From assembly GCA_038061795.1 (NCBI GenBank), contig JBBTYL010000002.1:13193-77192 (forward strand): DNA of 64,000 bases, read 5' to 3'. The DNA comes from Patescibacteria group bacterium. Lineage in GTDB: Bacteria > Patescibacteriota > Minisyncoccia > Phycocordibacterales > PALSA-1337. The position numbers and the translations under genes were made by a program. The notes under the pieces were generated by a model. It was not told the DNA's origin and ran no database searches. It saw only the letters and a program-made list of their open reading frames with translations. Position 1 is the first letter of the stretch; each line of letters opens with the position of its first letter. Of this stretch, positions 9,711 through 16,700 are shown piece by piece.

Positions 9711-10047
9711 GGTGCGGTTGGACAGTTACAATCCGCTTACGACGCAGTGTGTCCTCAGCAGTGCGTTGTACGGTAGAAAATGAGGAATTTTGACAACAAT
9801 CGGCGCGCGGCGGACATTTCAACGCGCCGACCGAAAATGGCTACTAAGGATGAGGGTGGACTTTGCCGGACTTCGGTCCAACCACGCTCATAGCCCGTTT
9901 CCCTTCTATGCAACGGCGCAGGGAGGATTGAAACGCATCACGTCTGCAGCGATGATGAGGCGACCACCAATATATTTGCTCGAGGTGGATTGTTCGACCG
10001 GTTTGTGGGCGTGTCGTTGACTTCAAGTCGACGCACGCCCCTTTTTT
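9711..10047 (+). ncRNA. Unclassified structured ncRNA candidate (~335 nt), GC-rich, promoter to intrinsic terminator
   Basis: GC-rich island in an AT-rich genome. Local hairpins include GGAC-UUCG-GUCC (UUCG tetraloop) and GGCGCG...CGCGCC. Ends in the strong terminator GGGCGTG...CACGCCC plus TTTTTT at 10007-10047. No plus-strand CDS lies downstream. Confidence 0.4.
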
Positions 10048-13000
10048 ATTTCTCAATATCCAACTTCGCAGAGAATTCCCCTATAGCAGTTGACTCTCCT
10101 TCAATCGATTTTAAAACAATATCCTTCAACCCCGTTGCGCTTGAGAGAGCGCTTTTATTTTTTTCAATTATATCTGCGAGCACAGCGTCCGTATCGACAG
10201 TCAAAATCGCCCGATCTTGTATTGTAAGGCCTTTTTCTTTTCTCAAATCCTGAATAGCTCGGATAAGCTCCCGCACAGTTCCCTCCTCTTTCAATTCTGG
10301 CGTAAGTGCGACGTCGAGAATCACCTCTTCGTTAAGCGAAGGATTCTGAAGAATTTCTTTTACGTTAACTTCGTCCTTGACTAGATCTGCAAGCGCTGTC
10401 GGCAACGTCGCCTTTATCGCAAGCTTTGTAAGCGGCTGCCGGACATTTATTTTCTCCTTCATGCGTGCCTCAAGGCCAAGCGATGCAAACGTGCGAACTT
10501 TCTGCATATTTGCGATGACTGATTCATCAACCTTAGGATATGATGGCCATGATTCGAGATGTACGCTCTCTTCAGGACCTTTCAATCGCAAATAGACATC
10601 CTCTGCAGTAAACGGCATGAGCGGCGCGATAAGTTTTGCGAAATCAATCAGGACATTTCGAGTCGTATAAAGCGCCATCTCCTTGTCTGCGACATTTTCA
10701 CCCTTGAAGCGATCTCGCGAACGGCGGAGATACCATGTAGAAAGGTCATCGATAAACTGCGCAAATGGCCTTGCCGCTCGATCGATCTCATATTTTTCAA
10801 GCGCATCAGTGACTTCTTTTGCAAGTTCTGCGAGCCTCGTCATGATCCAGATATCGAGAACGTGCGTACTCTTTGTTTCAGAAAGCTTTCCATCTGCTGG
10901 TGCATACATCTCATAGAAAGAGACTACGTTATTGAGGCGTCCGATGTGCTTCTTTACGACTTCATCCACCCCCTTTTCTGAGAAAGCGAAATCCTGCCCC
11001 TTCACGATTGGCGATGACATAAGGAAATAGCGGAGCGCATCTGCGCCGTATTTGTTCACGATAAGCATAAGATCGGGATAATTCTTCTCGCGCTTCGACA
11101 TCTTTCGTCCGTCTTCCGCAAGTACAAGTCCATTCACGACCACCCTCTTGTAAGGAGATTTTCCAAACAGCGCGACTCCGAGCACGATCATAGAATAGAA
11201 CCATCCTCGTGTCTGATCTAGTCCTTCTGCGATAAAATCTGCTGGGTAGCCTTTTGTCTTTCCAAGAATCTTGCTGAACGGTCCTGGTTTAGGATTAAAA
11301 TCGTCTTTGCTAAAAGGATAATGAGCCTCGCCAAATGGCATTGCTCCAGACTCGAACCAACAATCAAATACCTCTGGGATGCGTGTCATCTTGTTCCCCT
11401 TTTCAGAAACAAGTTCTATATCATCGATGAACGGCCTGTGAAGCTCAACTTCATATTCGTCATTGTGTGGTAATGGAGAAAAATCAAGCTTACGAGGCTT
11501 TGCGTTTATATTGAAATGGTCGCTGGTGCCTCGAAGCGCAATCGACTGCTCCCTATCGAGTCCCTGCGCTGCGGCATCAAGAAGAAAGAGCGGCGTATCA
11601 TGAGAAACGATAAGAATATTCTTGCCTTCATATTTCTTTTCAAGGCTGTAAAGAAAATCCCCCACGCGCTTCTTTATGTCAGCGTAGTTTTCTCCGCCTT
11701 CGGGAGTCTCCGTAAAACGGCTCTCGTGTCCAAAACTCGAAATAAAATCATTGAAACCTTTTCCATTCCATATTCCGGTATTAATCTCGCAGATCTTCGG
11801 CTCAGAAATTATCTTTTTCTTATCGATTCCGATCTTCTTTGCGATTATCTCCGCGGTCTCTCGCGTCCTGACAAAAGGAGACGTGAAAATAAGATCGATT
11901 TTTTTGCTTGTAAGCCATTTCCCAGCATCCTCAGCTTGTTTCTTTCCCTTGTCAGTGAGGTGATGCGGATTTTCTGCCAACGAACTGATAATCATCTTGG
12001 CATTATTTTCCGCCTCCCCATGGCGGCAAACATAGTATGTATTCTTTGCCTTGCTATGTTTCTTGAGGTCCTCAACTGAACCAAGAACTTTGCACTCCCC
12101 TGTCTTGTCATCTTTCCAGACCGGAAGAGGGGCACCCCAGAAGCGTGAACGTGAAATCGCCCAGTCCCGCGCGCCAAGCAGCCAATTTCCAAATCTACCT
12201 TCTCCGATTTCAGCAGGAACCCATTCAACTTTCTTGTTTTCATTTACAAGCTTGTCTCGCAATGCTGTAACTTTTACGAACCATGATGAAGAGGCGTAAT
12301 TCAGAAGCGGAGTATCGCATCTCCAACAGTGTGGATATGAGTGGATTAATTTTTCTTTAGCAAAAAGCCTCTCTTTCTTTGCAAGATACTTTATGATTTC
12401 GACATCAGCTTTCTGGTGGGCATCTTTTTCTTCCAGAGTGTCTTTTGGCTTTACGAGCTGTCCGGCAAAATCGGTGACTTCGGGCCTGAATACACCACTT
12501 GTCGTGACATGCTGAACGAATGGGAGATTGTGCTTCAATGAAAGCTCATAGTCGTCAGCACCGAATGCCGGAGCGATATGCACGATTCCGGATCCGTCCT
12601 CTGTAGTCACGAATTCAGCGCCATAGACTTTCCAGCCGTTCTCAGCGTTTTTGAGCTTCTTGTCTTTCGAATAATAATCAAAAACTGGTTCATACGATTT
12701 TCCAACGAGTTCAGAGCCCTTAACTGTTTCCACAATCTTATATTTTGTATCTTTAAGCACTGACAATCTAGACTTTGCTAAAATATATTCTTCCTTAATT
12801 AATTCAAGTTCTGTTGGAAAAGATTTATTTGCCTCAAAAGATTCTTCAAATGTTTTACCTTGTGCATCAACTCCTTTGAATATTTTTATTTTTACATATT
12901 CAATTTCTGGATTTATCGCAAGCGCGACATTTCCTGGAAGCGTCCAAGGCGTCGTCGTCCATGCGAGAAAAAAAGTATCCGGCGCATCAGATAACTTGAA

Positions 13001-13651
13001 CTTAACATACACGGAAATATCTGTGATGTCCTTGTAGCCCTGGCTGACCTCGAAGTTTGAGAGCGTCGTCTCGCATCGAGGACAGAGATTCATTGACTTG
13101 AAACCTTCGTAGATCAAGCCTTTCTTGTGGAGCTGAGAAAATGCCCACCAGACAGACTCGGTGTATGTCGCATCCATCGTACGGTAATCGTCCTCCATAT
13201 CAACCCATCGTCCAAGTCGAGGAATGATTTTTCTCCAATCATCCGCATAGCGCATGACGCTTCCCTTCGCCATCGCATTGAACTTTCCAACACCGTAGTC
13301 AACAATATCTTTTTTTGAAGCAAGACCAAGTTCTTTTTCAATAATATTTTCTACTGGCAATCCGTGGCAGTCCCATCCCCATCGTCGACGGACCTTATAG
13401 CCCTGCATGGTCTTGTAGCGTGGAATGATGTCCTTTATGGTTCCGGGTACGACGTGTCCATAGTGCGGCTCGCCAGTAGCGAACGGAGGCCCGTCATAGA
13501 ATACAAAATCGCCCCGGTATTCTCTATCGGGTGCTTCTTGCGCAAGGGTTTTCTTGAAAATGCTATTCTTTTCCCAGAAAGCTAGTATCTTTTCTTCCGT
13601 TTCTGCTACTTTGCTCTTAGGGGGTTTCTCTAAAGGTTTTTCTTCAGACAT
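10046..13651 (-). CDS. ileS: Isoleucyl-tRNA synthetase with an inserted histidine-phosphatase-superfamily domain
   Basis: HIGH region PFATGEPHYGHV, KMSKREKN, and WAISRSRFWGAPLP...ELHRPFIDDI flanking the insert. The insert (aa ~535-735) has RHGEAENN, SPFVRTRETAEI and IVSHDTPL phosphatase motifs. 1201 aa against ~950-1050 for typical IleRS. Confidence 0.9.
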   Translation of the reverse strand: MSEEKPLEKPPKSKVAETEEKILAFWEKNSIFKKTLAQEAPDREYRGDFVFYDGPPFATGEPHYGHVVPGTIKDIIPRYKTMQGYKVRRRWGWDCHGLPVENIIEKELGLASKKDIVDYGVGKFNAMAKGSVMRYADDWRKIIPRLGRWVDMEDDYRTMDATYTESVWWAFSQLHKKGLIYEGFKSMNLCPRCETTLSNFEVSQGYKDITDISVYVKFKLSDAPDTFFLAWTTTPWTLPGNVALAINPEIEYVKIKIFKGVDAQGKTFEESFEANKSFPTELELIKEEYILAKSRLSVLKDTKYKIVETVKGSELVGKSYEPVFDYYSKDKKLKNAENGWKVYGAEFVTTEDGSGIVHIAPAFGADDYELSLKHNLPFVQHVTTSGVFRPEVTDFAGQLVKPKDTLEEKDAHQKADVEIIKYLAKKERLFAKEKLIHSYPHCWRCDTPLLNYASSSWFVKVTALRDKLVNENKKVEWVPAEIGEGRFGNWLLGARDWAISRSRFWGAPLPVWKDDKTGECKVLGSVEDLKKHSKAKNTYYVCRHGEAENNAKMIISSLAENPHHLTDKGKKQAEDAGKWLTSKKIDLIFTSPFVRTRETAEIIAKKIGIDKKKIISEPKICEINTGIWNGKGFNDFISSFGHESRFTETPEGGENYADIKKRVGDFLYSLEKKYEGKNILIVSHDTPLFLLDAAAQGLDREQSIALRGTSDHFNINAKPRKLDFSPLPHNDEYEVELHRPFIDDIELVSEKGNKMTRIPEVFDCWFESGAMPFGEAHYPFSKDDFNPKPGPFSKILGKTKGYPADFIAEGLDQTRGWFYSMIVLGVALFGKSPYKRVVVNGLVLAEDGRKMSKREKNYPDLMLIVNKYGADALRYFLMSSPIVKGQDFAFSEKGVDEVVKKHIGRLNNVVSFYEMYAPADGKLSETKSTHVLDIWIMTRLAELAKEVTDALEKYEIDRAARPFAQFIDDLSTWYLRRSRDRFKGENVADKEMALYTTRNVLIDFAKLIAPLMPFTAEDVYLRLKGPEESVHLESWPSYPKVDESVIANMQKVRTFASLGLEARMKEKINVRQPLTKLAIKATLPTALADLVKDEVNVKEILQNPSLNEEVILDVALTPELKEEGTVRELIRAIQDLRKEKGLTIQDRAILTVDTDAVLADIIEKNKSALSSATGLKDIVLKSIEGESTAIGEFSAKLDIEK

Positions 13652-13688
13652 GAGACCATGTTATCACTTTCTAACCTTTTTTTCATCT

Positions 13689-15368
13689 CTACATCCTTTT
13701 CGGAATTTGTATGCCAAGAACCCAAAGCCCATTCGTCATGACATCTGAAAAAACTTTTGTAAGTGCGACACGGTATGTAGATACTGCGTCGCTCTCGCTG
13801 ATGATCTGGTTGTTCGCATAGTATGAATTAAAGGCGGAAGAAAGCTCGATCAAATACGTCACAATATGATGCGGAGCATACTCTGTCCGCGCTCTTTCGA
13901 CAACTTCTGGGAATCTCAAGACAAGCTTCTCAAGTGTCTCTACTTTTTCTGGTAATGTTGTAACCTCCTTCACGCCGCCAGCTTTTGCGAGAACCGCTCG
14001 AGCACGGACGACAGCGTATTGGAGGTAGGGACCGGAATCACCCTCGAACGAAAGGGCTTTGGTCGGATCATAAATTACATCGCCGCCAATAGCTTGACGG
14101 AGGATAGTGTATTTGAGTCCAGCGACGGCAACTTCCTTGCGAATTTCCATTTTTTCCGCATCGGTAAATTCCCTATCGCTTATCTTCTCATCGACGAGTG
14201 ATTCGAATTCTCCAATAAGCGTTTCTGCAGCCACGATGTTTCCTTTACGTGAAGACATTTTTCCAGTCGATGGGCGAAGAATTCCATGGCTGAGATGCTT
14301 CATTTTTTCAGCTTTTTCAGGAAAAATCGCCTTTATCGTAACGAGAAGGACTTTGAAATATGCATTCTGCTCATTTGCGGTAATAACGATTGATTCTGTC
14401 ATATCAGGATACTTTTTAAACTTCAAATCCGTAAGCCCGAGCTCCTTTGCCTCGTACGTCGGCAAGCCTTGAGAATTGATGAAGACTCGCGTATGTTCCC
14501 CGTATTTTTCTCCAGGAAAAACGACTGCGCCCTCGCTCTCCTCAAAGACTCCCTCCTTGAGGAATTCCCTTACGATTTTTATTCCATCATCAGCGACCTG
14601 GCTTTCAAAAAAGAATTCATCGAACCTGGTTCCGAGCCTCTTGTAGACAGAATCGAAATATTCAAGGCTTAATTTCCTCCCGGCATCGTATATCTTGTTG
14701 ATTTCAGGATCTGATTTTTCAAAAACTTTCTTGTTCACGTCGGCAATCTCTTTTTTTGCAATCTCATCAGATTCATATTGGGCGGAACCGAAGACATATC
14801 TGTCTCCAAGATATTTAATATCGTCCTTATAGCTGCCGTCCTTCTGAATCGCCCAGATAGTCTTTGCAACATGAAGCCCGACATCGCCCTGATAGCAGGC
14901 ACGGATGACTTTCGCCCCTGAAAATTCGACAAGACGCGAGATCGATTCTCCGATCGTATTTGCCATGAGGTGACCGATATGGAAAATCTTGAAAGGATTC
15001 GGGTCGGTGTGTTCGACCATGATCTCCTTCCCCTTGTCAATTGAAAGCTTCCCAAAATTTTCGGCATCTTTTGAAATCCTAAGTATTTCTTTTGAAAAAT
15101 ACGAATCCACGACTTTGAAATTAATGAAACCTTGACCGGCAATCTCTATCGAGGCTATGTCTGCAGGAAGATTCTTTTTGCACTCATCAACGATCTTTTC
15201 TGCAAGAATCTTGGGTGAGATCTTCAGGGATTTCGAATGCATCATGGCAACATTCGATGAAAAATCGCCGTGAGACATGTCTTCTGGGTGTTCAAGACGA
15301 ATGGATGGGTCAGCAATGCCAATCTTTTGAGCCGCTTTTGCTAGCAATTCGATAATAACCTTATTCAT
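13689..15368 (-). CDS. argS: Arginyl-tRNA synthetase
   Basis: HIGH-like FKIFHIGHLMANTIGESISR, N-terminal Arg-tRNA-binding domain, anticodon-binding C-terminus ending KRM. Confidence 0.9.
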   Translation of the reverse strand: MNKVIIELLAKAAQKIGIADPSIRLEHPEDMSHGDFSSNVAMMHSKSLKISPKILAEKIVDECKKNLPADIASIEIAGQGFINFKVVDSYFSKEILRISKDAENFGKLSIDKGKEIMVEHTDPNPFKIFHIGHLMANTIGESISRLVEFSGAKVIRACYQGDVGLHVAKTIWAIQKDGSYKDDIKYLGDRYVFGSAQYESDEIAKKEIADVNKKVFEKSDPEINKIYDAGRKLSLEYFDSVYKRLGTRFDEFFFESQVADDGIKIVREFLKEGVFEESEGAVVFPGEKYGEHTRVFINSQGLPTYEAKELGLTDLKFKKYPDMTESIVITANEQNAYFKVLLVTIKAIFPEKAEKMKHLSHGILRPSTGKMSSRKGNIVAAETLIGEFESLVDEKISDREFTDAEKMEIRKEVAVAGLKYTILRQAIGGDVIYDPTKALSFEGDSGPYLQYAVVRARAVLAKAGGVKEVTTLPEKVETLEKLVLRFPEVVERARTEYAPHHIVTYLIELSSAFNSYYANNQIISESDAVSTYRVALTKVFSDVMTNGLWVLGIQIPKRM

Positions 15369-15409
15369 GGCTCAATTCTAGCACTAAAAGGCTGCTTCTA
15401 GCGAGAAAG

Positions 15410-15437
15410 TTGACTTTTTCTATATATCTGTTATATT
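15410..15437 (+). promoter_or_regulatory. sigma70-like promoter (TTGACT-16nt-TATATT)
   Basis: TTGACT at 15410-15415 and TATATT at 15432-15437 in the argS/glyA intergenic region. Confidence 0.3.
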
Positions 15438-15443
15438 CAACAC

Positions 15444-15535
15444 GGGGTGGAAACGCGCAAGTTCCTCAACCGTGCGTTTGGGCTCGTAGTCTGTAGCTGT
15501 GGGGGCAGCACAGGGTACGAGCCTTTTCTATTTCC
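15444..15535 (+). ncRNA. Small RNA candidate (~90 nt) ending in hairpin plus T-run
   Basis: Promoter-proximal start. Ends in the extended hairpin GGCTCGTA...CTGTG-GGGGCAG-CACAG...TACGAGCC at 15481-15523 plus TTTTCTATTTCC. No plus-strand CDS downstream. Confidence 0.3.
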
Positions 15536-16700
15536 TCAAAATCGCATCGATCCGTTCAGCGATTTTTTTCATGTCTTTTTCCTTCTTGCCTCGAGTCGTT
15601 TCTGCTGCGGTTCCGAGCCTGATACCTGAAGGATCAGCGGGCGGTCGGGTATCAAAAGGTATCGCATTCTTATTCACGATTATCCCCTCTTTCTCAAGCC
15701 TATCACTTGCATCCTTTCCAGAAATTCCTTTTCCTTCCATCCATGTATCGACAAGAACAAGATGACTGTCAGTACCTCCTGAAATTATTTTCCAGCCTTT
15801 CTTGTCGAGCTCATTTGCAAGCGTCTTTGCATTTTTCTTTATCTGAGAAGCATATTTTTTAAAAGCGGGGGCGGCTGCTTCTTTTAGAGCGACTGCCACA
15901 GCGGCAATTTGGTTTTCATGCGGACCTCCCTGAAGTCCAGGAAAAACAGCGCGATCTATTTTCTTTCCGAGTTCTCTGGTATCTGCCTTTGAAAAAATAA
16001 TAGCGCTTCGTGGGCCACGGAGAGTCTTGTGAACGGTCGTAGTGACAATATCCGCATACTCAAATGGCGAAGGATATTCCCTTCCCGCAATAAGTCCTGC
16101 AATATGAGACATATCTATCATAAGCAATGCCCCACTCACATCGGCCGCTTCTCGCAATTTCTTGAAATCAATCTGTCGCGGATATGCAGTATATCCTCCA
16201 ACTATAATCGCTGGTTTTTCTCGTATCGCGATTTCTTTTAACTCATTATAATCAAGGACTTCGGTAAGCTTGTTCACTCCATACGGTACTTGAGTCCAAA
16301 ATTTTCCTGTAGCTGAGACTTTGTGGCCATGCGTGAGATGTCCTCCCTGATCAAGAGACATGCCCATGATTTTTCCTCCTTGCGGTACGAGGGCGACATA
16401 TACTGCCAAGTTTGCTGGGGACCCAGAAAGCGCCTGCACATTCACATTCCATTCGGTTTCTTTTAGGCCAAAAAGCTTCAAAGCTCTCTCAATTGCAAGA
16501 GATTCTACTTTATCGACAACTTCGTTTCCACCATAGTAGCGCTTGCCTGGGTAGCCTTCAGCGTATTTGTTCGTGAGCTCGGAGCCGAGCGCCTCAAGGA
16601 CGTCCTTCGATACGTAGTTTTCTGAGGCGATAAGATTGATGACTTTCTTCTGCCTCTTCTTTTCAGCATCTAGTAGCTTCTTGATCTGTATGTCTTTCAT
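15528..16700 (-). CDS. glyA: Serine hydroxymethyltransferase
   Basis: LIASENYVSKDVLEALGS...YAEGYPGKRYYGG, HLTHGH, and a PLP-lysine region. Confidence 0.9.
   Translation of the reverse strand: MKDIQIKKLLDAEKKRQKKVINLIASENYVSKDVLEALGSELTNKYAEGYPGKRYYGGNEVVDKVESLAIERALKLFGLKETEWNVNVQALSGSPANLAVYVALVPQGGKIMGMSLDQGGHLTHGHKVSATGKFWTQVPYGVNKLTEVLDYNELKEIAIREKPAIIVGGYTAYPRQIDFKKLREAADVSGALLMIDMSHIAGLIAGREYPSPFEYADIVTTTVHKTLRGPRSAIIFSKADTRELGKKIDRAVFPGLQGGPHENQIAAVAVALKEAAAPAFKKYASQIKKNAKTLANELDKKGWKIISGGTDSHLVLVDTWMEGKGISGKDASDRLEKEGIIVNKNAIPFDTRPPADPSGIRLGTAAETTRGKKEKDMKKIAERIDAILRK

What the first reader, a model, noticed from the sequence alone, without database searches (positions are those of the whole stretch)
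11449..12049. Isoleucyl-tRNA synthetase carries an in-frame ~200-aa histidine-phosphatase (PGAM-like) domain inside its catalytic core
Seen in sequence: the ileS ORF is 1201 aa. Between the conserved WAISRSRFWGAPLP block (aa ~500-510) and ELHRPFIDDI (aa ~738), bacterial IleRS normally has ~40-50 residues. Here there are ~230. That segment has the three diagnostic histidine-phosphatase branch-1 motifs in order: RHGE (VCRHGEAENN), SPxxRTxETA (SPFVRTRETAEI) and a second catalytic His (IVSHDTPL). HIGH and KMSKS flank the insert in the same frame, so this is one polypeptide, not two genes. Inference: an aaRS with a built-in phosphohydrolase could couple aminoacylation to dephosphorylation of a nucleotide or tRNA end. 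It could alternatively be a degenerate structural module. I am not aware of a described IleRS with this architecture.
Basis: partly seen in the sequence, partly recalled or inferred. Interest (0 to 1): 0.72.

Follow-up and report, generated by a model that had tools for sequence, protein, structure and literature searches.

The report
IleRS with an embedded histidine phosphatase
The isoleucyl-tRNA synthetase of this candidate-phyla-radiation bacterium really does carry a complete histidine phosphatase domain, with all its catalytic residues in place, spliced into its catalytic domain; the pairing is old and widespread in these bacteria, I found no description of it in the literature, and its substrate is unknown.

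Summary
ORF 10046-13651 (minus strand, 1201 aa) is a type-2 IleRS (TIGR00392, 873 bits). A 198-aa His_Phos_1 domain (PF00300, E 5e-32) replaces a six-residue loop between WGAPLPVW and LHRP. It is not an artefact. All 120 best homologues (58-100% identity, many independent Patescibacteria assemblies) share the architecture. The same insert occurs at about 40% identity in Saccharibacteria and Parcubacteria, and its divergence tracks that of the IleRS core.

The catalytic Arg-His, Arg, Glu and His are invariant or nearly so in about 165 domain copies, so a degenerate module is unlikely. AlphaFold models a complete fold for the insert (pLDDT 90-96). Its nearest solved structures are small-metabolite phosphatases (PspA, PhoE, GpgP, CobC).

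New here: in Nealsonbacteria-like lineages the same phosphatase is a separate gene abutting an insert-less ileS, in the same argS-ileS-recO synteny. Related copies sit at other IleRS sites, in ValRS (up to four copies), on the ArgRS C-terminus and on TsaC.

So this is most likely an active phosphatase partnered with tRNA-charging enzymes. The substrate and any kinetic coupling are untested. I found no published description. Verdict: new variant of a known kind, interest about 0.66.

The parts
10046..13651 (-). ileS: one ORF of 1201 aa, a type-2 isoleucyl-tRNA synthetase with an embedded phosphatase domain
   Evidence: ORF list. TIGR00392 scores 872.8 bits against a cut-off of 621.4. Best solved relative is P. 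megaterium IleRS2 8c8u, E 1e-213. The AF2 model matches IleRS2 structures with TM 0.71-0.80.
12053..13651 (-). IleRS aa 1-533: first half of the Rossmann (HUP) catalytic domain with the HIGH motif (HYGH, 13454-13465), the CP1 editing domain (TTTPWTLPGN 12929-12958; GSGIVHIAPAFGADD 12551-12595) and WAISRSRFWGAPLPVW (within the 12116-12166 match)
   Evidence: Pfam tRNA-synt_1, stretch 22-541. Motif positions. These residues are invariant in 77 homologues.
11459..12052 (-). Inserted histidine phosphatase domain (His_Phos_1), aa 534-731. It replaces a roughly 6-residue loop of insert-less IleRS2.
   Evidence: PF00300 E 5.4e-32. pLDDT 90-96 within the full-length model. Domain model pLDDT 84.9, best folds PspA 4ij5/4ij6, GpgP Rv2419c, PhoE, CobC. 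pN 0.12, similar to the CP1 and C-terminal domains, against saturated pS of about 0.8.
12014..12025 (-). RHGE motif: Arg543 and the nucleophile His544
   Evidence: R, H and G are invariant in 120/120 close homologues. R and H are invariant in 163/163 domain copies from 50%-identity cluster representatives and related genome loci.
11867..11869 (-). Arg595 (SPFVRTRETA), phosphate-binding arginine
   Evidence: 120/120; 172/172.
11786..11788 (-). Glu622, the expected general acid
   Evidence: 120/120. Glu in 157 and Asp in 12 of 171 copies.
11600..11602 (-). His684 (IVSHDTP), the second active-site histidine
   Evidence: 120/120; 168/169.
10862..11458 (-). IleRS aa 732-930: second half of the catalytic domain (ELHRPFIDD 11420-11446, DCWFESG 11345-11365, KMSKR 11090-11104)
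   Evidence: phmmer alignment to 8c8u resumes at query residue 732, chain residue 483. Motifs located.
10049..10855 (-). Anticodon-binding domain (aa 933-1075) and C-terminal DUF5915 domain (aa 1110-1201)
   Evidence: PF08264 E 3.7e-29 and PF19302 E 3.1e-17.
13689..15368 (-). argS (559 aa), 37 nt upstream of ileS. In related lineages the free-standing phosphatase gene lies between argS and ileS.
   Evidence: ORF. Synteny argS-(hisphos)-ileS-recO in L009 and L021-L023; in L020 a different 1015-aa gene (faint PG_binding_1 hit) precedes the phosphatase gene.
9062..9616 (-). recO-like gene (184 aa), the conserved downstream neighbour of ileS
   Evidence: ORF. RecO_N/RecO_C sit in the same position in L020-L023. 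BLAST synteny table.

Best explanation
The gene encodes a working type-2 isoleucyl-tRNA synthetase. A complete PhoE/PspA-like histidine phosphatase domain of about 198 aa is spliced into a surface hairpin of the Rossmann-fold domain, between WGAPLPVW and LHRP.

Shown here:
- The insert is predicted with high confidence to adopt a complete histidine-phosphatase fold.
- It keeps every residue of the phosphohistidine mechanism: Arg543 and His544 as nucleophile pair, Arg595 and His684 for phosphate binding, Glu622 as general acid.
- It has been inherited with its IleRS host across deeply diverged Patescibacteria.
- In a sister lineage the same phosphatase is a separate gene that abuts or overlaps the start of an insert-less ileS.

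Inferred: the domain is an active phosphohydrolase whose job is tied to IleRS, and more generally to ATP-consuming tRNA enzymes (IleRS, ValRS, ArgRS, TsaC). What selection maintains is co-localisation and 1:1 co-expression, not a precise active-site geometry, because insertion sites and copy numbers vary.

My best guess at the chemistry is hydrolysis of a small phosphorylated compound generated or used at adenylate-forming enzymes, such as a nucleotide monoester or pyrophosphate-type by-product. Removal of a 2'/3'-phosphate or pyrophosphate that blocks the tRNA CCA end is the main alternative. The substrate is not established by anything done here.
For: Architecture and motifs.

Not an artefact and widespread:
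- 120/120 best homologues carry PF00300.
- 105 of the 150 best 50%-identity cluster representatives that match the insert have IleRS flanks.
- The same insert occurs at 37-42% identity in Saccharibacteria, Parcubacteria and Dojkabacteria genomes.

Catalytic residues: invariant in 120/120. Across about 165 diverse copies, R543 163/163, H544 163/163, R595 172/172, E/D622 169/171 and H684 168/169.

Purifying selection: pN 0.12 for the insert. That is higher than the 0.04-0.06 of the catalytic core and similar to the 0.11-0.12 of the CP1 and C-terminal domains, against saturated pS of about 0.8.

Fold: pLDDT 90-96 for the insert in the full-length model. The nearest folds and sequences are the roughly 200-aa metabolite phosphatases PspA, PhoE, GpgP, CobC and HFP.

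Vertical inheritance: insert identity tracks core identity, at 80/85, 39/54, 37/40, 52/57 and 93/89 %.

Genetic partnership: in 5 of 5 loci examined a free-standing homologue (198-205 aa) lies directly upstream of an insert-less ileS, from an overlap of up to 10 nt to a gap of 58 nt. The 10 fused loci have no separate phosphatase gene nearby.

Other partners: 71 of the 120 best ValRS hits carry PF00300. P0235 is an ArgRS C-terminal fusion and P0231 a TsaC fusion. Alternative IleRS sites and multiple old copies that are only 33-36% identical to one another also occur.
Against: No enzymatic activity, substrate or inter-domain geometry was or could be tested. The structure tool returns no coordinates or PAE, so I do not know whether the phosphatase pocket faces the synthetic site.

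The nearest characterised relatives act on ordinary metabolites (phosphoserine, alpha-ribazole phosphate, glucosyl-3-phosphoglycerate). The variety of insertion sites fits simple hitch-hiking as well as it fits coupling.

The five split loci belong to one clade (phosphatases 55-66% identical), so they may reflect a single evolutionary event.

The survey of partner proteins started from an IleRS insert and is biased towards IleRS.

Some CPR bacteria encode an ordinary inorganic pyrophosphatase (PMC4736985), so there is no evident need for a pyrophosphate-removing role.
Confidence: 0.62

Rival explanations
1. Hitch-hiking metabolic enzyme. The domain is an ordinary small-metabolite phosphatase (phosphoserine, sugar phosphate or cofactor phosphate). 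It became welded to constitutively expressed essential genes in streamlined genomes and has no mechanistic link to aminoacylation.
For: The closest solved relatives by sequence and fold are metabolite phosphatases. The several insertion sites, tandem copies and an end-to-end ArgRS fusion that simple stop-codon loss could create suggest that geometry does not matter. glyA lies two genes upstream of ileS in the window.
Against: Every context found for this clade is a tRNA-charging or tRNA-modification enzyme that forms an adenylate: IleRS, ValRS, ArgRS, TsaC. The pairing with IleRS survives down to about 40% identity, and the fused and split forms are complementary. An internal insertion into an essential catalytic domain is a costly route to mere co-expression. 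No NCBIfam equivalog cut-off for PspA, CobC, dPGM or GpmB is reached.
Confidence: 0.25
2. Catalytically silent structural or regulatory module. The fold would be kept as a spacer, a tRNA-binding surface or a ligand sensor that modulates the nearby KMSKS loop, with no turnover.
For: Insertions at this position of class Ia synthetases can be non-enzymatic; the leucine-specific domain of LeuRS is an example (my own knowledge, not tested here). The position after the second His is Asp or Glu in this clade where other copies mostly have Gly.
Against: All five catalytic residues plus Gly545, Asn550, Ser591, Thr599 and Glu654 are conserved across copies that are otherwise only 33-40% identical. Pseudo-enzymes normally lose these residues. 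Free-standing homologues keep the same residues.
Confidence: 0.08
3. Selfish or mobile insertion (intein-like or transposon-derived) that is merely tolerated.
For: Patescibacterial IleRS and ValRS genes also hold other foreign in-frame domains: an IS200-type Y1 transposase domain and GNAT in P0206, PF04480 in two ValRS, and Nudix plus serine hydrolase in L010. The insert ends in a conserved His-Asn.
Against: There is no Hint/intein or endonuclease domain in the window protein. The residue after His-Asn is Asp, Glu or Ala rather than Cys, Ser or Thr, and distant lineages have Arg-Asp or Arg-Asn there. Insert divergence tracks host divergence, so there is no sign of recent spread. There is no compositional anomaly.
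Confidence: 0.03
4. Sequencing, assembly or frameshift artefact that joins two genes.
For: None found.
Against: It is a single ORF with IleRS sequence on both sides in the same frame. The identical protein occurs on 4 contigs, and the same architecture is found in more than 120 independent clusters from NCBI, ENA, JGI and Logan assemblies.
Confidence: 0.01

Closest known systems
Type-2 (eukaryote-like) bacterial IleRS, e.g. Priestia megaterium IleRS2 (PDB 8c8u/8c8v)
   Same: Best solved relative of the host protein (E 1e-213; Foldseek E 1e-75, TM 0.71-0.78). It has the same HIGH and KMSK motifs, CP1 editing domain, anticodon-binding domain and C-terminal DUF5915-type domain.
   Different: The solved enzyme has only residues 478-483 where the window protein has 198 residues forming a phosphatase domain. 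The window protein also lacks the Cys pairs of the hairpin that other lineages keep.
Small histidine phosphatases of branch 1: Hydrogenobacter PspA (4ij5), Geobacillus PhoE/YhfR (1h2e, 1ebb), mycobacterial GpgP Rv2419c (4qih), CobC alpha-ribazole phosphatase (6nru, 6e4b)
   Same: Same fold (TM 0.67-0.76, rmsd 2.5-3.5 A), the same RHG / R / E / H catalytic set, and a similar size of about 200 aa without the dPGM-specific extensions.
   Different: They are free-standing enzymes acting on metabolites. Identity is only 21-29%. None of their NCBIfam equivalog cut-offs is reached: PspA 75 against 350, CobC 78 against 163, dPGM_arch 84 against 225. The insert's substrate is unknown.
Bifunctional RNase H / acid phosphatase (NCBIfam NF005567, PRK07238; M. 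tuberculosis Rv2228c type)
   Same: This family pairs a nucleic-acid enzyme with a His_Phos_1 phosphatase in one polypeptide. It is the best NCBIfam hit of the insert alone (88.6 bits, E 5e-25).
   Different: It is an end-to-end fusion, not an insertion into a catalytic domain. The partner is RNase H, not a synthetase. The score is far below the cut-off of 326, so the window protein is not a member.
IleRS with an N-acetyltransferase domain (NCBIfam NF040702, ileS_w_GNAT)
   Same: A curated precedent for an IleRS that carries an extra enzymatic domain. One relative found here (P0206) has both His_Phos_1 and GNAT.
   Different: The extra domain is of a different kind. The window protein scores 325.8 against a cut-off of 1999 and has no GNAT domain.
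Free-standing His_Phos gene directly upstream of ileS in Nealsonbacteria/Minisyncoccales-like genomes (e.g. L009 5992-6588; P0390, P0430, P0474, P0478, P0487)
   Same: Same phosphatase clade (33-42% identical to the insert), with shared motifs KNxY(F/Y)xxRHGE and EKKYxGKNILIVSH and the same argS-ileS-recO neighbourhood.
   Different: It is a separate polypeptide of about 198 aa, and the IleRS next to it has no insert. It has an SCWPEK motif where the insert has SSLAENPHH.

Membership tests
Isoleucyl-tRNA synthetase (class Ia; TIGR00392 ileS) | Whole-protein score above the curated equivalog cut-off | tested here: met
   872.8 bits against a cut-off of 621.4.
Isoleucyl-tRNA synthetase (class Ia; TIGR00392 ileS) | Class I signature motifs HIGH and KMSKS in the Rossmann fold | tested here: met
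   HYGH at aa 63-66 and KMSKR at aa 850-854. H62, G64, K849 and K852 (numbering minus 1) are invariant in 77 homologues.
Isoleucyl-tRNA synthetase (class Ia; TIGR00392 ileS) | CP1 editing domain with the conserved Thr-rich and GxGxVHxAP motifs; anticodon-binding domain | tested here: met
   TTTPWTLPGN at 232-241 and GSGIVHIAPAFGADD at 353-367. PF08264 E 3.7e-29.
Isoleucyl-tRNA synthetase (class Ia; TIGR00392 ileS) | Charges tRNA-Ile with isoleucine | not testable with these tools
   This needs an aminoacylation assay.
Type-2 IleRS (IleRS2) | Type-2 C-terminal organisation (ARD2/ARD3-like, no C-terminal zinc-binding domain) and closest to IleRS2 structures | tested here: met
   DUF5915 at the C-terminus. 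The best solved relatives are IleRS2 and eukaryotic IleRS, with IleRS1 far lower at E 1e-83. Nomenclature follows 10.64898/2026.02.03.703510.
Acquired mupirocin-resistance IleRS (NCBIfam MupA NF000257 / MupB NF000258) | Score above the exception-model cut-off (1900 bits) | tested here: not met
   737.8 and 737.3 bits. It is related as an IleRS2 but is not a MupA or MupB allele.
Histidine phosphatase superfamily, branch 1 (PF00300 His_Phos_1) | Significant match to the family profile above the gathering score | tested here: met
   111.5 bits against 21.7, E 5.4e-32, aa 540-703.
Histidine phosphatase superfamily, branch 1 (PF00300 His_Phos_1) | Catalytic core: RHG motif with nucleophilic His, second Arg, acid Glu, second His | tested here: met
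   R543, H544, G545, R595, E622 and H684 are all present and are 120/120 in close homologues. They are at least 99% conserved, allowing E/D at 622, in about 165 divergent copies.
Histidine phosphatase superfamily, branch 1 (PF00300 His_Phos_1) | Alpha/beta fold of the family, complete including the last strand | tested here: met
   The AF2 domain model (pLDDT 84.9) superposes on PspA, PhoE, GpgP and CobC with TM 0.67-0.76. The insert has pLDDT 90-96 in the full-length model.
Histidine phosphatase superfamily, branch 1 (PF00300 His_Phos_1) | Phosphohydrolase or mutase activity through a phosphohistidine intermediate | not testable with these tools
   This needs an enzyme assay with an H544A control.
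Cofactor-dependent phosphoglycerate mutase (dPGM; TIGR01258, NF010713 and others) | Score above the equivalog cut-offs; dPGM-length protein (about 230-250 aa) with a C-terminal tail | tested here: not met
   Scores are 20-44 bits against bacterial dPGM cut-offs of 82-421, and 84 against 225 for the archaeal dPGM model. The domain is about 198 aa and resembles the short phosphatase subgroup. 'PGAM-like' is correct only at superfamily level.
Phosphoserine phosphatase PspA (NF045917) / alpha-ribazole phosphatase CobC (TIGR03162) | Score above the equivalog cut-off | tested here: not met
   PspA 75.0 against 350; CobC 77.7 against 162.9.
Intein (protein-splicing insertion) | Hint domain; Cys/Ser at the N-terminal junction; His-Asn followed by Cys/Ser/Thr at the C-terminal junction | tested here: not met
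   There is no Hint or intein family in Pfam. The conserved His-Asn (729-730) is followed by Glu, Ala or Asp and is Arg-Asp or Arg-Asn in distant lineages.

The most novel reading that the evidence does not exclude
In a large part of the Patescibacteria the tRNA-charging step has an obligatory phosphatase partner. The embedded or adjacent histidine phosphatase would act on a species produced or bound at the synthetase itself. One option is that it strips a 2'/3'-phosphate or pyrophosphate from the tRNA CCA end, the kind of damage made by toxic RelA/SpoT-homologue enzymes. Another is that it hydrolyses pyrophosphate or a nucleotide by-product to pull adenylate formation. Either way IleRS, and ValRS, ArgRS and TsaC in other lineages, would be a genuine two-activity enzyme of a kind not described for any synthetase.
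Probability: 0.3. Interest if true: 0.85.

Novelty: new variant of a known kind. Interest (0 to 1): 0.66.

Why it matters
Aminoacyl-tRNA synthetases are among the best-studied enzymes. Their extra domains (editing, tRNA-binding, GST-like, cytokine-like) have repeatedly revealed new biology.

I found no described case of a histidine phosphatase with intact catalytic residues sitting inside the catalytic domain of IleRS. The case is stronger because the domain is conserved across a radiation that makes up a large share of bacterial diversity, and because the same enzyme exists as a separate gene abutting ileS.

If the phosphatase acts on a tRNA end, a nucleotide or pyrophosphate, it would add a new step to how these reduced, host-dependent bacteria keep translation running. 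If it is only a hitch-hiker, it is still a clear example of how streamlined genomes weld unrelated activities into essential genes, and of how tolerant class Ia synthetases are to large insertions.

The split and fused forms make a ready-made experimental pair.

Tried and rejected
- **Literature.** Six full-text searches found nothing on this architecture: IleRS or aaRS with histidine phosphatase, phosphoglycerate mutase, CPR, Patescibacteria, insertion, fusion. The 2026 IleRS domain survey does not mention a phosphatase or Patescibacteria.
- **Geometry.** I hoped to measure the distance from His544 to the synthetic site and the tRNA A76 path. Structure prediction returns no coordinates or PAE, and none are in /data, so this could not be done.
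- **Pyrophosphatase idea.** I looked for an argument from absence. At least Peribacteria encode an inorganic pyrophosphatase (PMC4736985). The 64-kb window has no family-I PPase signature and no second RHG phosphatase, but a window cannot show absence from a genome. The idea is kept only as one option.
- **Intein or mobile element.** There are no Hint or endonuclease domains and the junction residues do not fit.
- **dN/dS.** Synonymous sites between the window and L001 are saturated (pS about 0.8), so only pN could be compared between domains.
- **Recent tandem duplication as the source of multi-copy proteins.** Rejected, because copies within one protein are only 33-36% identical.
- **Rfam.** A scan of the window and of the 430-nt gap downstream of ileS gave only tRNAs and a sub-threshold chance hit.
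- **Specific assignment.** Assigning the domain as dPGM, PspA, CobC, GpmB or SixA is rejected because every NCBIfam equivalog cut-off is missed.
Full report
**1.

The window has one uninterrupted ORF at 10046..13651 on the minus strand, encoding 1201 aa. It passes the curated cut-off of the IleRS equivalog TIGR00392 (872.8 bits against 621.4). Pfam reports a split tRNA-synt_1 domain, Anticodon_1, DUF5915 and His_Phos_1 (PF00300) at aa 540-703 with E 5.4e-32.

Against the closest solved structure, Priestia megaterium IleRS2 (8c8u, E 1e-213), the alignment breaks at query residue 533 / chain residue 478 and resumes at 732 / 483. About 198 residues therefore replace a loop of about six. I place the insert at aa 534-731, which is window 11459-12052.

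GC content shows no break at the junctions.

**2. It is not an artefact and not a one-off.**

The identical protein is on record from four contigs in NCBI and ENA. All 120 best homologues (58-100% identical, from NCBI, ENA, JGI and Logan assemblies, named Patescibacteria or Parcubacteria where named at all) carry PF00300 together with the IleRS domains.

I searched with the insert alone against one representative per 50%-identity cluster. This gave 59 clusters at E <= 1e-30 and 1270 at E <= 1e-10. Of the best 150, 105 have IleRS sequence on one or both sides.

In GTDB genomes the same insert, at the same site, occurs at 37-42% identity in Saccharibacteria (L002, L003, L017), in Parcubacteria-type genomes with a different IleRS subtype (L005-L007) and in other Patescibacteria (L004, L008). 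A Dojkabacteria IleRS (L010) also has it.

Pairwise identity of the insert tracks that of the IleRS core: 80/85, 39/54, 37/40, 52/57 and 93/89 %. The insertion is therefore old and vertically inherited, and there is no sign of recent spread.

**3. The domain looks like a working enzyme.**

- In the 120 close homologues R543, H544, G545, N550, S591, R595, T599, E622, E654, R662 and H684 are invariant.
- In about 165 domain copies taken from the 50%-identity representatives and the genome loci, R543 is 163/163, H544 163/163, R595 172/172, position 622 is Glu or Asp in 169/171, and H684 is 168/169.
- Against L001 (84% identical over the queried stretch) the insert has pN 0.12. That is higher than the 0.04-0.06 of the catalytic core and similar to the CP1 editing domain and the C-terminal domains (0.11-0.12). 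Synonymous sites are saturated at pS of about 0.8.
- AlphaFold2 on an alignment of 77 homologues gives mean pLDDT 81.5, with 90-96 over the insert. The full model matches IleRS2 and eukaryotic IleRS structures with TM 0.71-0.80.
- The domain modelled alone (pLDDT 84.9) superposes best on short branch-1 phosphatases with TM 0.67-0.76: Hydrogenobacter phosphoserine phosphatase PspA, mycobacterial glucosyl-3-phosphoglycerate phosphatase, PhoE, CobC and a riboflavin-pathway phosphatase. The sequence search of the PDB gives the same ranking.
- No NCBIfam equivalog cut-off is reached for dPGM, PspA, CobC, GpmB or SixA.

The domain is thus a member of the superfamily and of the short phosphatase type, but it cannot be assigned a substrate. 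'PGAM-like' is correct only at superfamily level.

**4. New evidence for a partnership with IleRS.**

In a Nealsonbacteria genome (L009) a free-standing 198-aa homologue lies 6 nt upstream of an ileS that has no insert, where the sequence reads ...SIKELEEKKESFSEIKNLHRP.... It is 40% identical to the insert and shares the motifs KNxY(F/Y)xxRHGE and EKKYEGKNILIVSH.

A homology search with this protein found a large family of proteins of about 198 aa. Four members, 60-66% identical to the L009 protein and taken from long contigs, all lie directly upstream of an insert-less ileS of 949-987 aa. The arrangement ranges from an overlap of up to 10 nt to a gap of 58 nt. RecO lies downstream in all four, and argS lies upstream in three of them.

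The window has the same order, argS (13689-15368), ileS, recO-like (9062-9616), with only 37 nt between argS and ileS.

Across the 15 loci compared the two forms are complementary:
- Ten loci have the insert and no separate phosphatase ORF nearby.
- Five loci have the separate gene and no insert.

This is a classic fused/split (Rosetta-stone) pattern combined with conserved adjacency. One caveat applies: the five split loci belong to one clade, so they may represent a single evolutionary event. The adjacency has nevertheless been kept while the proteins diverged to 55-66% identity.

**5. The phenomenon is wider than IleRS and wider than one site.**

Some relatives carry the domain at other positions of IleRS:
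- after the WFESG motif;
- after LHKxxxD inside the same hairpin;
- between the catalytic and anticodon-binding domains.

These proteins have two or three copies. P0131 is a ValRS with four RHG domains, one of them at the equivalent WGxxIPVW site. Of the 120 best hits to it, 71 are ValRS of Gracilibacteria, Peregrinibacteria and similar bacteria that carry PF00300. Copies within one protein are only 33-36% identical, so they are old rather than recent duplications.

P0235 is an ArgRS with the domain fused to its C-terminus, as expected if the stop codon of argS were lost in an argS-phosphatase-ileS operon. P0231 is a TsaC/Sua5 fused to the domain. Every context found is an ATP-consuming, adenylate-forming enzyme of tRNA charging or tRNA modification. 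The survey started from an IleRS insert, so it is biased towards IleRS.

**6. How it most likely works.**

Shown: a complete histidine-phosphatase fold with an intact catalytic set sits inside an IleRS that itself keeps all synthetic and editing motifs, and the phosphatase is genetically bound to IleRS in two alternative forms.

From established knowledge of the superfamily, His544 would attack a phosphoryl group held by Arg543, Arg595 and His684. Glu622 would protonate the leaving group, and the phosphohistidine would then be hydrolysed.

Inferred: selection keeps the phosphatase physically and stoichiometrically with tRNA enzymes. Because sites and copy numbers vary, exact geometry is probably not critical. 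This favours a diffusible or loosely bound substrate over strict channelling.

My rough probabilities for the role:

| Role | Probability |
|---|---|
| Active phosphatase working on a small phosphorylated by-product or substrate of adenylate chemistry (nucleotide monoester, pyrophosphate-type compound) | about 0.3 |
| Removal of a blocking 2'/3'-phosphate or pyrophosphate from the tRNA CCA end | about 0.2 |
| Unrelated metabolic phosphatase that hitch-hikes | about 0.25 |
| Silent structural or regulatory module | under 0.1 |

- CCA-end repair draws on my own knowledge that toxic RelA/SpoT homologues pyrophosphorylate CCA ends. The TsaC fusion argues against it, because TsaC does not handle the CCA end.
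- The pyrophosphate option is not helped by any known lack of pyrophosphatase in CPR bacteria.
- None of these options can be separated with the tools available. In particular I could not obtain coordinates to see where the phosphatase pocket points.

**7. Comparison with what is known, and novelty.**

The host is an ordinary IleRS2 and the guest an ordinary short branch-1 histidine phosphatase. The combination is what is new.

Known precedents are of a different kind:
- NCBI curates an IleRS with a GNAT domain (NF040702). The window protein is not a member (326 against 1999 bits).
- NCBI also curates a bifunctional RNase H/acid phosphatase (NF005567). It is the best NCBIfam hit of the insert but far below its cut-off, and it is an end-to-end fusion.

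Six full-text searches returned nothing on a synthetase with a histidine phosphatase. A 2026 analysis of 96,219 IleRS sequences and their domains does not mention it. The sequences themselves are public and carry automatic names such as 'class I tRNA ligase family protein'.

I rate it a new variant of a known kind (synthetases with accessory domains), with interest about 0.66. A synthetase specialist would be surprised by an intact phosphatase active site inside the catalytic domain that is conserved across a large bacterial radiation. The fused and split pair makes the question directly testable. The function, however, is still unknown.

Noticed in passing
L010 3601-8232 (Ca. Dojkabacteria, WJKM01000019.1): An IleRS of about 1540 aa carries three foreign enzymatic domains in frame. 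A serine-hydrolase-like domain (PF06821) and a NUDIX domain (PF00293) sit in the CP1 region, and a His_Phos_1 domain sits at the same site as in the window.
   Followed up: partly
P0131 and the hits (ValRS of Gracilibacteria/Peregrinibacteria-type bacteria): ValRS also carries His_Phos_1 inserts. 71 of the 120 best hits have PF00300, and P0131 has four RHG domains, one of them at the equivalent WGxxIPVW site. Two ValRS also list PF04480 (endonuclease-like DUF559).
   Followed up: partly
P0235 (689 aa) and P0231 (387 aa): The same phosphatase clade is fused to the C-terminus of ArgRS (P0235) and to TsaC/Sua5, the threonylcarbamoyl-AMP synthase of t6A formation (P0231). The TsaC-fused copy is most similar (50%) to an IleRS insert.
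   Followed up: partly
P0206 (1066 aa): An IleRS fragment has an IS200-type Y1 transposase domain (PF01797) in frame at aa 340-461, a His_Phos_1 domain, and a GNAT acetyltransferase domain. It may be real or an assembly chimera; I did not check.
   Followed up: no
P0222, P0244, P0209, P0267: These IleRS proteins have two or three His_Phos_1 copies at different sites: after WFESG, after LHKxxxD, and before the anticodon-binding domain. P0222 lacks a copy at the window's site. Copies within one protein are only 33-36% identical.
   Followed up: partly
window 12782-12889 (ileS aa 255-290): There is a second, small lineage-specific insertion in the CP1/editing region (…KIFKGVDAQGKTFEESFEANKSFPTELELIKEE…). 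It has very low GC (0.32 in 12650-12949), pLDDT below 50 (residues 265-283), and no counterpart in the alignment to 8c8u.
   Followed up: no
window 9617-10045: A 430-nt gap between ileS and the recO-like gene has no convincing ORF and raised GC (0.50-0.54). A strong GC-rich hairpin follows the ileS stop directly (GGGGCGUGCGUCGACUUGAAGUCAACGACACGCCC). There is no Rfam match, and the fold z-score is only -1.8. In the split-gene loci a small ORF of 101-146 aa without a Pfam hit occupies this position.
   Followed up: partly
L005, L006, L007, L009 (ileS N-terminus): These IleRS have the HIGH-motif variant GIHH (…NGKPGIHHVLAR…). It fits the [A/G]XHH variant that 10.64898/2026.02.03.703510 links to mupirocin hyper-resistance in IleRS2. 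The window enzyme has the canonical HYGH.
   Followed up: no
window 7103-16700; L001, L003, L004, L008, L009, L017, L020-L023: The gene order (glyA)-argS-ileS-recO followed by a large 560-650-aa protein (DUF7619-like) is conserved across very divergent Patescibacteria.
   Followed up: partly
L020 313-4853: Directly upstream of the free-standing phosphatase gene lies what looks like a diversity-generating retroelement: bAvd (PF22296), a reverse transcriptase (RVT_1) and a 1015-aa possible target protein.
   Followed up: no
window 3029-4468 (minus strand, 479 aa): An ORF with weak similarity to class I synthetases (E 8e-09 to the N-terminal part of IleRS). It is probably another class I aaRS. 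I did not identify it.
   Followed up: no
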